This document shows, in pieces, positions 1,067 through 1,696 of a stretch of DNA of 5,969 nucleotides. A program made the translations under genes and the position numbers. Source of the stretch: a virus (taxonomy: Duplodnaviria; Heunggongvirae; Uroviricota; Caudoviricetes); IMG/VR virus record IMGVR_UViG_2671181189_000007; one strand, 5' to 3'. A model generated the notes under the pieces. The model saw only the letters and a list, made by a program, of their open reading frames with translations. It was not told the DNA's origin and did not search any database. The first letter of the stretch is position 1; the number at the start of each line of letters is the position of its first letter.

Positions 1067-1696
1067 TCAGCCCCGGCTGGATCCAGTCATCAGGCTCTTT
1101 CTTAAAGGGGGAGTATTGAAATCACGAAGAAGAGCCTCCCGCACCGCAGCATCCATGTCTGCACCACTGGCAAGTGCTTCAATCTCTGCCGCCACCTGCA
1201 AATACCCCATGCAACGGCCAATGCGTTTCATAACTCTGGTGTTTTCGTCTTTCAGGCATCTGATAGCGAGATTAATAATTTTCAGGCAGTGATGATGCGA
1301 TGCCCGGACAGGTTTTCCGTTCTCATAAACGACGAACTCACCCTCTTCACAGGAAACCCTGAAAGGCCGATGGGGTTCCTGGTCTTTATCCGGTGCAGAC
1401 GCAATAAAATCACTTTTATGCTCTTCCTCTCCGGCACTGTTAACCGTAATGACGTACTCAGGCCGCAGGTAAGCCGCCTCTTTTTCTGACAATGCGGCCG
1501 GTAAAAACTTTTCCTGCAAAAACTTCATAAAAGTCTCGTGAGCGACTTTGTGGCAGTAATCGTAAATCGCCGCATAATGCTCATCGCGGCGTTTGTTTTC
1601 ATCTTCAGAACTCACCAACGCCGACAATTTTTTATTAAGCTCAGTGATTTCATTTTCCAGGTGATTGAATCGCTGATTCATTTCTTCATGCTTCAT
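1067..1696 (-). CDS. Hypothetical 209-aa soluble protein inserted between pinholin and endolysin (moron-like accessory gene; function unknown)
   Basis: ATG at 1696..1694 preceded by a strong SD (GGGGAGAG, 6-nt spacer) lying inside the holin 3' end; the holin TAA stop is 3 nt upstream of this ATG. Long uninterrupted ORF with no obvious TM segment, a predicted coiled-coil N-terminus and a Cys/His-containing C-terminal half (HHHC...C...C). I do not recognise the family. Confidence 0.7.
   Translation of the reverse strand: MKHEEMNQRFNHLENEITELNKKLSALVSSEDENKRRDEHYAAIYDYCHKVAHETFMKFLQEKFLPAALSEKEAAYLRPEYVITVNSAGEEEHKSDFIASAPDKDQEPHRPFRVSCEEGEFVVYENGKPVRASHHHCLKIINLAIRCLKDENTRVMKRIGRCMGYLQVAAEIEALASGADMDAAVREALLRDFNTPPLRKSLMTGSSRG

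What the first reader, a model, noticed from the sequence alone, without database searches (positions are those of the whole stretch)
1067..1696. Unrecognised 209-aa soluble protein wedged between pinholin and SAR endolysin, translationally coupled to the holin
As I recall the canonical phage 21 cassette, S21 is followed directly by R21. Here a 630-nt gene sits between them. Its SD (GGGGAGAG) lies inside the holin 3' end and its ATG is 3 nt after the holin stop, so it should be made in step with the holin. It then leaves a 65-nt AT-rich spacer with no clear SD before the endolysin. The protein has no TM segment, a coiled-coil N-terminus and a Cys/His-bearing C-terminal half, and matches no lysis protein I know. 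It could be a lysis-timing or antiholin-like regulator, or a defence or superinfection-exclusion moron using late expression. I believe the Qin prophage has a small gene (ydfR) in the same position, so the site is a plausible insertion hotspot, but that is recollection only.
Basis: partly seen in the sequence, partly recalled or inferred. Interest (0 to 1): 0.75.

Follow-up and report, generated by a model that had tools for sequence, protein, structure and literature searches.

The report
Headless, frameshifted YdfR-family prophage gene
The ORF between the holin and the lysozyme is a real but already catalogued prophage gene of unknown function: it is the tail half of the "long YdfR" proteins that commonly fill this slot in E. 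coli, Shigella and Salmonella prophages, and this copy has lost both its head domain and, through a 1-base deletion, its conserved C-terminal tail.

Summary
A 209-aa ORF (1696..1067, minus strand) starts 3 nt after the S21-type holin stop, has its SD inside the holin, has no TM segment, and lies upstream of a SAR-type lysozyme.

It is not an unrelated insertion. It matches phrog_1085 (E=1e-73, unknown function). It corresponds to the coiled coil plus C-terminal module of 268-333-aa "YdfR family" proteins, whose DUF1327 head it lacks. That three-part layout is also found in Salmonella prophages, so it is ancestral.

The slot is occupied in 47 of 66 related viral loci (all by DUF1327 genes) and empty in 19, so the gene is dispensable for lysis. 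In Salmonella the gene lies upstream of a different holin.

The family is real: dN/dS is 0.2-0.45 overall and 0.16-0.36 in the C-terminal module. This copy has a C6-to-C5 deletion that replaces the conserved tail (PFKK..W..PGLTYLK). The allele is fixed in Shigella flexneri, in an IS-truncated prophage.

Pfam, NCBIfam, PADLOC, PDB and fold searches gave no match, and both AlphaFold models were poor. Function remains unknown, and nothing supports an antiholin or defence role. This is an ordinary accessory gene, probably decaying here.

The parts
1067..1696 (-). Target ORF, 209 aa: a 'headless' member of the long-YdfR / phrog_1085 family (RefSeq WP_001300760.1, 'hypothetical protein').
   Evidence: (phrog_1085, E=1.2e-73, profile positions 117-288 of 296)
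1703..1710 (-). Shine-Dalgarno-like GGGGAGAG inside the holin 3' end, 8 nt upstream of the target ATG. The holin stop TAA is at 1702-1700.
   Evidence: read; the same junction is conserved in L005
1508..1696 (-). Residues 1-63: two long helices, coiled-coil-like. Homologous to the coiled coil that follows the DUF1327 head in the long forms.
1373..1507 (-). Residues 64-108: variable, predicted-disordered middle region (pLDDT <50; dN/dS 0.5-1.2).
1106..1372 (-). Residues 109-197: the conserved C-terminal module, a beta-hairpin region followed by helices. R161, G164 and P197 are invariant; F112 and H136 are nearly invariant. No Pfam model covers it.
   Evidence: (dN/dS 0.16-0.36)
1107..1111 (-). 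Frameshift site: a run of 5 C where the intact homologue L005 has 6 C (1-nt deletion).
   Evidence: the other 210 aligned nt are 100% identical; same allele in FDAARGOS_944
1044..1109 (-). The family's conserved tail, PFKKEPDDWIQPGLTYLKRRI* (ancestral stop at 1046-1044), still encoded but now out of frame. In frame the ORF ends LRKSLMTGSSRG*.
1700..1915 (-). S21-type class II holin (pinholin family), 71 aa, with the MKSM dual start.
   Evidence: (PF04971, 5.5e-35)
468..1001 (-). Lysozyme (endolysin), 177 aa, with a SAR-like N-terminal segment.
   Evidence: (PF00959, 5.4e-24)
57..486 (-). Rz (67-486) and embedded Rz1 (57-251) spanin genes.
2690..3106 (-). Late antiterminator Q. It places the lysis genes and the target on the Q-dependent late transcript.
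   Evidence: PF06530, 5.8e-54
2207..2547 (.). Masked run of N. It corresponds to a tRNA Ile/Arg/Thr/Gly cluster between Q and the holin in the near-identical E. coli locus.

Best explanation
The ORF is a genuine late-operon accessory gene of a lambdoid prophage. It belongs to the mosaic 'long YdfR' family (phrog_1085), which is restricted to Escherichia/Shigella and Salmonella prophages.

The ancestral protein has three parts: a DUF1327 head, a coiled coil, and a roughly 110-aa conserved C-terminal module ending in the tail NPPFK..P..W..PG..YLK. The window's gene is a derived 'headless' form that keeps only the coiled coil, the variable linker and the C-terminal module. It still uses the conserved start 3 nt after the holin stop, so it is probably translated in step with the holin from the Q-dependent late transcript. 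That last point is inferred.

This allele also carries a C6-to-C5 deletion that swaps the conserved 21-aa tail for 12 unrelated residues. It sits in an IS-truncated, defective prophage and is fixed in Shigella flexneri. The most likely reading is therefore a cytoplasmic, self-associating protein that is not needed for lysis and is functionally impaired or decaying in this lineage.

For the intact family, my best guess at mechanism is a cytoplasmic adaptor made late in infection. The coiled coil would oligomerise it. The DUF1327 head, shown for K-12 YdfR to bind the RNase E catalytic domain and possibly RNA, would dock on host RNA-decay machinery. The C-terminal module and tail would bind a second partner that is still unknown. 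This is inferred and low-confidence. A headless copy could keep only the second interaction.
For: Shown:
- Family membership and architecture.
- The Salmonella relatives have the same layout, and their head is homologous to DUF1327 (hhalign 90%, E=1.6e-6).
- Narrow distribution: 43 cluster representatives among 1.84 billion proteins, and 3 loci among species-representative genomes.
- Purifying selection, strongest on the C-terminal module.
- The slot is dispensable: 19 of 66 loci have S directly followed by R.
- The Salmonella copies lie upstream of a PF16080 holin.
- The frameshift and its fixation: and (exact protein on >=1000 contigs, mostly S. flexneri).
- IS transposase ORFs lie directly after Rz in the near-identical locus L008.
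- Homologues are annotated as frameshifted or incomplete.
- No internal promoter or terminator.
- No TM segment.

From the literature: K-12 YdfR residues 1-72 bind the RNase E N-terminal domain in two-hybrid and co-purification assays, and RNA co-purifies with YdfR (PMC13232886).
Against: - No experiment or structural match addresses the function of the C-terminal module.
- Both AlphaFold runs were poor (pLDDT 57, pTM 0.28), and the fold searches found nothing.
- The RNase E data concern the DUF1327 head, which the target lacks. K-12 YdfR shares no region with the target, so the adaptor idea is an extrapolation.
- In the same paper, YdfR overproduction changed few transcripts.
- Headless forms recur and are conserved: many 209-217-aa proteins in E. 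coli and E. albertii, and P0136, a distant headless relative of unknown source. So coiled coil plus C-terminal module may be a functional unit by itself.
- The truncated-tail allele has stayed open over 209 codons in thousands of isolates, so 'impaired' is not proven.
Confidence: 0.6

Rival explanations
1. Lysis-timing regulator: a cytoplasmic, antiholin-like or endolysin-release modulator made stoichiometrically with the pinholin. It would bind the holin's charged cytoplasmic C-terminus, or the SAR endolysin before export.
For: The gene starts 3-4 nt after the holin stop in every E. coli locus examined. The family stays next to a lysis cassette in two genera. It lies on the late transcript with no promoter of its own.
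Against: Absent from 19 of 66 otherwise similar cassettes. In Salmonella it is separated from an unrelated holin family by a convergent gene. No TM segment. No similarity to any PHROG lysis-category family. Frequently pseudogenised. The holin already carries its own dual-start antiholin motif.
Confidence: 0.12
2. Defence, superinfection-exclusion or anti-defence moron that occupies a recombination hotspot in the late region.
For: The slot is highly mosaic and variably filled. Taxonomic range is narrow. The C-terminal module has two divergent allelic types across residues ~109-152. Neighbours in related loci include HicAB, PemK and a Tad2-like gene. A small convergent gene accompanies it in several loci.
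Against: No PADLOC hit. No promoter-like site that would allow expression in the lysogen. The convergent partner is optional. No enzymatic or sensor domain detected.
Confidence: 0.1
3. This copy is simply a non-functional remnant (pseudogene) in a dead prophage. The open frame persists only because too little time has passed.
For: The frameshift removes a tail that is conserved as far as the Salmonella relatives. The prophage is truncated by IS elements just after Rz. The DUF1327 head is missing. Shigella is known for gene decay (general knowledge).
Against: 197 codons upstream of the shift remain intact, with a conserved start and SD. The allele is identical on >=1000 contigs. Headless forms with intact tails are common and under purifying selection. 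The holin, lysozyme and Rz beside it are also intact.
Confidence: 0.3
4. The 1-nt deletion is compensated by -1 ribosomal frameshifting on the in-phase heptamer C CCU UUA (1109-1103). A fraction of the product would then carry the conserved tail (…PPL-KKEPDDWIQPGLTYLKRRI).
For: The heptamer fits the X XXY YYZ pattern and is in the correct phase; a -1 slip restores the ancestral frame exactly (read; located).
Against: One CCCTTTA in the window is what chance predicts (0.61 expected). There is no significant downstream structure (z=-0.5). The motif is a by-product of the deletion and occurs only in this allele. No evidence of efficiency was found.
Confidence: 0.03

Closest known systems
Long 'YdfR family' / DUF1327 proteins of E. 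coli lambdoid and Stx prophages (e.g. P0004, 333 aa; Stx2-converting phage 86 gp05, YP_794052.1, 268 aa; phrog_1085)
   Same: Same genomic slot, starting 3-4 nt after the class II holin stop. 82% identity to P0004 over 94% of the target. Shared coiled coil, C-terminal module and (in the DNA) tail. The 3' 210 nt are identical to L005 apart from the missing C.
   Different: The target lacks the DUF1327 head that gives the family its name and has a frameshifted tail. No function is known for any of these proteins.
E. coli K-12 YdfR (P76160, Qin prophage, 103 aa, DUF1327 only)
   Same: Same position between the S21-type holin (essQ) and the lysozyme (rrrQ), starting 4 nt after the holin stop. It is the head module of the same ancestral three-part protein.
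   Different: It shares no homologous region with the target. The published RNase E N-terminal-domain binding and possible RNA binding map to YdfR residues 1-72 (PMC13232886), so they cannot be transferred to the target.
Salmonella enterica prophage 'hypothetical proteins' (P0126-P0135, P0162-P0276; 230-340 aa)
   Same: The same three-part layout: a DUF1327-like head (hhalign 90%), a coiled coil, and a C-terminal module with the NPPFK..W..PG..YLK tail, about 30-37% identical.
   Different: They are encoded upstream of a PF16080-type holin, between Q/HicAB and the lysis genes, and are followed by a convergent small gene. All are uncharacterised.
Known cytoplasmic or membrane lysis regulators (S21-71 antiholin, T4 RI/RIII, P1 LydB)
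   Same: Encoded within or beside a lysis cassette and expressed late.
   Different: No sequence similarity: no lysis-category PHROG hit. No TM segment. The gene is dispensable for the cassette. This resemblance rests on position only.

Membership tests
phrog_1085 (uncharacterised phage protein family) | Significant full-length match to the family HMM | tested here: met
   E=1.2e-73, 249 bits; target residues 1-209 on profile positions 117-288 of 296
YdfR family / DUF1327 (PF07041) | Presence of the DUF1327 domain | tested here: not met
   No PF07041 hit at E<=0.1. The alignment shows the target starting after the head and linker. No NCBIfam hit.
YdfR family / DUF1327 (PF07041) | Homology to the non-DUF1327 part (coiled coil + C-terminal extension) of the long family members | tested here: met
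   82% identity over 94% of the query to P0004, which carries PF07041; many other hits of 268-333 aa carry PF07041
YdfR family / DUF1327 (PF07041) | Location directly downstream of a class II (S21-type) holin and upstream of the lysozyme | tested here: met
   (47 of 66 loci have a DUF1327 gene whose match begins 8 nt after the last holin codon)
Antiholin / lysis-timing regulators | Sequence or topological relation to a holin or a known antiholin (a TM or periplasmic domain, or a match to RI/RIII/LydB-type families) | tested here: not met
   No lysis-category PHROG or Pfam hit. Maximum hydropathy 0.76, so no TM segment.
Antiholin / lysis-timing regulators | Alters the time of holin triggering | not testable with these tools
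   Needs induction and lysis curves with deletion and repaired alleles.
Anti-phage defence systems (PADLOC-DB) | Match to a known defence protein model | tested here: not met
   0 families at E<=1
Anti-phage defence / exclusion moron | Own promoter allowing expression from the repressed prophage | tested here: inconclusive
   No sigma-70-like site on the coding strand in 900-2700, but a consensus scan cannot exclude weak or alternative promoters.
Cys/His metal-binding domain | A conserved set of three or four Cys/His ligands | tested here: not met
   Only H136 is conserved (75/77). C162 is C54/A13/S7; C116, C137 and C147 vary.
Pseudogene | Reading frame disrupted relative to the family consensus | tested here: met
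   C6-to-C5 deletion. The conserved tail is readable only in the other frame.
Pseudogene | Loss of coding constraint (dN/dS near 1, further stops) | tested here: inconclusive
   The family as a whole has dN/dS of 0.2-0.45. This allele is too close to its nearest intact relative to judge: CTD dN 0.025, dS 0.068. There are no additional stops.
Programmed -1 ribosomal frameshift site | In-phase X XXY YYZ heptamer plus a stimulatory element, conserved among relatives | tested here: not met
   The heptamer is present and in phase, but there is no significant downstream structure and the shift exists only in this allele.

The most novel reading that the evidence does not exclude
The coiled coil plus C-terminal module could be the working end of an undescribed late-expressed host-takeover or lysis-coordination factor specific to enterobacterial lambdoid prophages. 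In the full-length proteins the DUF1327 head would dock on the RNase E catalytic domain or on RNA. The conserved module and its NPPFK..W..PG..YLK tail would recruit or inhibit a second target, for example the lysis machinery or an RNA-decay partner. Headless forms would then act as free-standing regulators or as dominant-negative versions.
Probability: 0.12. Interest if true: 0.6.

Novelty: new member of a known kind. Interest (0 to 1): 0.3.

Why it matters
The gene slot right after the S21-type holin is occupied in most related prophages by a family that nobody has characterised. K-12 YdfR has only recently been linked to RNase E. Showing that 'hypothetical' short proteins like this one are the detached C-terminal part of the same ancestral protein tidies up the annotation: they should be called YdfR-family C-terminal module proteins. 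It also defines a roughly 110-aa domain that has no Pfam model, and it gives experimenters natural split, headless and tail-less variants to test. For this particular window the practical message is modest: it is an accessory gene in a defective Shigella/E. coli prophage, probably on its way to being lost.

Tried and rejected
1. Pfam, NCBIfam and PADLOC scans of the target gave nothing significant. Pfam scans of 77 family members found only DUF1327, and only in long forms.
2. A profile search of PDB sequences gave only weak coiled-coil and AbpA hits (best E=0.004). I rejected these.
3. Two AlphaFold2 runs were poor: the window protein with 37 sequences, and the intact-tail P0002 with 77 sequences including Salmonella. 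Both gave pLDDT ~57 and pTM 0.28. Foldseek against PDB and BFVD gave no hit at E<=0.001. I did not run the third fold search because the model quality makes its matches meaningless.
4. The idea of an obligatory two-gene module with the convergent small gene is rejected. One small-gene family is shared between E. coli and Salmonella, but the widespread long form P0090 and the type A short forms lack it.
5. A Cys/His metal site is rejected on conservation.
6. Hits of the family profile to large proteins (P0143, P0156, P0158) are repeat artefacts: HEAT, SRCR and LRR proteins.
7. Programmed frameshifting: the heptamer is in phase but at chance level, with no stimulatory structure. The literature search returned only microRNA papers.
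8. Literature searches for ydfR, DUF1327 and accessory genes in lysis cassettes found only the 2026 RNase E interactome paper to be relevant.
9. A spacer hairpin or terminator between the ORF and the lysozyme: none.

Full report
**1. What is in the window.** All genes are on the minus strand. In transcription order they are:
- DnaC-like (5947..5000)
- DnaB-like helicase (5003..3612)
- an 85-aa ORF (3615..3358)
- NinH (3266..3063)
- the late antiterminator Q (3106..2690; PF06530, E=5.8e-54)
- a 341-nt run of N (2207-2547)
- an S21-type holin (1915..1700; PF04971, E=5.5e-35)
- the target ORF (1696..1067, 209 aa)
- a lysozyme (1001..468; PF00959)
- Rz and Rz1 (486..57)

In the near-identical E. 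coli FDAARGOS_944 locus, the masked stretch is a tRNA Ile/Arg/Thr/Gly cluster.

**2. The observation.** It is confirmed in detail.
- The holin stop TAA is at 1702-1700 and the target ATG is at 1696-1694, so 3 nt separate them. GGGGAGAG (1710-1703) lies inside the holin.
- 65 nt separate the target's stop from the lysozyme ATG.
- The protein has no TM segment. Its maximum 19-residue hydropathy is 0.76, against 1.75 for the holin.
- The N-terminal 63 residues are predicted as two long helices.
- No promoter-like or terminator-like site interrupts the region on the coding strand. The ORF should therefore be part of the Q-dependent late transcript and be translated in step with the holin. This is an inference from the layout, not a measurement.

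**3. What it is.**
- Pfam, NCBIfam and PADLOC give nothing. PHROGs gives phrog_1085, a family of unknown function, at E=1.2e-73, with the target covering only profile positions 117-288 of 296.
- A search of 5.8 billion proteins found 132 relatives, all from E. coli or Shigella. They fall into two groups: 'hypothetical' proteins of about 209-217 aa, and 268-333-aa proteins annotated 'YdfR family' or 'DUF1327 domain-containing'. The longer proteins carry PF07041 at the N-terminus and the target's sequence at the C-terminus. P0004, for example, is 82% identical over 94% of the query.
- The alignment shows this layout: DUF1327 head (~1-75), linker, coiled coil, variable middle, conserved C-terminal module, conserved tail.
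- K-12 YdfR (103 aa), which occupies the same slot in Qin between essQ and rrrQ, is the head alone. It shares no region with the target.
- A full HMMER profile search of 1.84 billion cluster representatives found only 43 hits.
- The distant hits are Salmonella enterica prophage proteins with the same three parts. Their head is homologous to DUF1327 by profile-profile comparison (90% probability, E=1.6e-6).
- The three-part protein is therefore ancestral. The window's gene is a derived 'headless' form.
- Among roughly 185,000 species-representative genomes, only three loci carry the module, all Escherichia or Shigella.

**4. The frameshift.**
- Family members end ...NTPPFKKEPDDWIQPGLTYLKGRI. 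The window's protein ends ...NTPPLRKSLMTGSSRG.
- Reading the window from 1109, shifted by one base relative to the ORF's frame, gives PFKKEPDDWIQPGLTYLKRRI*. This is identical to the tail of P0004.
- A DNA alignment shows a single missing C, C5 at 1111-1107 against C6 in L005, within 210 otherwise identical bases.
- The intact gene would be 217 aa and leave 42 nt before the lysozyme, as in L005.
- The tail is conserved as far as the Salmonella relatives: W205, P208, G209, Y212 and L213 are nearly invariant. Its loss is therefore likely to matter.
- The deletion is not an assembly error. The same allele is in 6-7 complete E. coli genomes, and the exact 209-aa protein is recorded on at least 1000 contigs, mostly Shigella flexneri.
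- In the near-identical loci L008 and L009, IS transposase genes begin directly after Rz. The cassette therefore belongs to a truncated, defective prophage.

**5. Is it a real gene family?** Yes.
- Pairwise dN/dS between diverged intact copies is 0.23-0.46. It is lowest in the C-terminal module (0.16-0.36) and highest in the variable middle (0.5-1.2).
- The locus also turns over quickly. Homologues are annotated as frameshifted or incomplete in L095 and L097.
- In L096 and L102-104 a short form is followed by a separate 75-aa DUF1327 gene.
- DUF1327 genes carry several unrelated C-terminal extensions.

**6. Is it part of the lysis machinery?** Probably not an essential part.
- Among 66 IMG/VR loci with a holin at least 90% identical and a downstream lysozyme, 47 have a DUF1327 gene in the gap and 19 have nothing. 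None has the target's C-terminal module.
- Only 92 of 5426 complete E. coli genomes have any nucleotide match to the ORF.
- In Salmonella the full-length relatives lie upstream of a different holin family (PF16080), beside HicAB, and are separated from the holin by a convergent gene.
- The family therefore keeps to the late region near the lysis genes but is not tied to the S-R junction or to the pinholin.

**7. Function.** Nothing I could run reveals one.
- The PDB profile search, two AlphaFold runs (pLDDT ~57) and Foldseek were uninformative.
- The only experimental lead is for the head domain. K-12 YdfR residues 1-72 bind the RNase E catalytic half in two-hybrid and co-purification assays, and RNA co-purifies with YdfR, although overproduction changed few transcripts (PMC13232886).
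- From this I infer, with low confidence, that the ancestral protein is a late-expressed cytoplasmic adaptor. The head would dock on RNase E or RNA, the coiled coil would oligomerise the protein, and the C-terminal module and tail would bind a second partner.
- The window's copy has lost the head and the tail, so at most it retains the central interaction.

**8. Rivals.**
- A lysis-timing regulator is suggested only by position and coupling. Dispensability, the Salmonella arrangement and the lack of any similarity to known regulators count against it.
- A defence or anti-defence moron fits the mosaic hotspot and the neighbourhood: HicAB, PemK, a Tad2-like gene, and optional convergent small genes. 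It has no PADLOC match and no promoter of its own.
- A plain pseudogene reading is compatible with the frameshift and the dead prophage, but the remaining 197 codons are intact and the allele is stable.
- The deletion happens to create an in-phase C CCU UUA heptamer on which a -1 slip would restore the tail. With no stimulatory structure and no conservation, I treat this as coincidence.

**9. Verdict.** The ORF is neither unrecognised by the databases nor an independent insertion. It is a catalogued, uncharacterised family member (phrog_1085; RefSeq 'hypothetical protein'): a headless and tail-truncated derivative of the long YdfR-family gene that normally fills this slot. Interest is modest. 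The useful outputs are the domain dissection, the annotation link between the short 'hypothetical' and long 'YdfR family' proteins, and the set of natural variants for testing.

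Noticed in passing
window 1107-1111 and 1044-1109 (minus strand): A 1-nt deletion (C6 to C5) puts the family's conserved 21-aa tail out of frame. The tail is still perfectly encoded in the other frame. 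The allele is fixed in Shigella flexneri (exact protein on >=1000 contigs).
   Followed up: yes
window 1103-1109 (minus strand): The deletion creates an in-phase X XXY YYZ heptamer (C CCU UUA). A -1 ribosomal slip there would restore the conserved tail. No supporting structure or conservation was found, so it is probably coincidence.
   Followed up: partly
window 2207-2547: A run of 341 N between Q and the holin. In the near-identical E. coli FDAARGOS_944 locus this position holds four tRNA genes (Ile, Arg, Thr, Gly).
   Followed up: partly
window 1-56; L008 5687-8140: The window's homology to FDAARGOS_944 stops just after Rz. In S. flexneri SFBU1023 (L008), IS-type transposase ORFs start there, so the prophage is cut off right after its lysis cassette.
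   Followed up: partly
L001 4154-4468, L002 3493-3807, L098 2449-2769, L091 4309-4626 (reverse strand in each locus): A convergent gene of ~104 aa (phrog_1853, no Pfam) follows the gene bearing the C-terminal module in E. coli Stx phages and in Salmonella (44-54% identity). Other loci have unrelated small convergent genes, and many loci, including the window, have none.
   Followed up: partly
L096 1501-2397; L102-L104 2501-3397: A 'permuted split' arrangement: a headless short form (213 aa) is followed by a separate 75-aa DUF1327 gene. This arrangement is common; P0030 is listed in 244 blocks of the collection.
   Followed up: no
L005-L007, about 6092-6613 in L005: A Tad2-like gene (PF11195, an anti-Thoeris family) lies just downstream of Rz in prophages carrying the intact long form. 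HicAB (Salmonella loci L091-L094) and a PemK toxin (L100) are also neighbours, so the late region around the lysis genes collects accessory cargo.
   Followed up: no
window 1904-1915 (minus strand): The holin begins MKSMDK, the dual-start motif expected for an S21-type pinholin/antiholin pair. The cassette therefore already encodes its own antiholin.
   Followed up: no
window 3358-3615 (minus strand): An 85-aa helical ORF between the DnaB-like helicase and NinH has only weak coiled-coil Pfam hits. Function unknown.
   Followed up: no
L013, L016, L020, L021, L026, L038 (gap after the holin): DUF1327 genes in the S-R slot range from 103 to 243 aa, with several unrelated C-terminal extensions. 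The head appears to be a common module with swappable C-terminal parts.
   Followed up: partly
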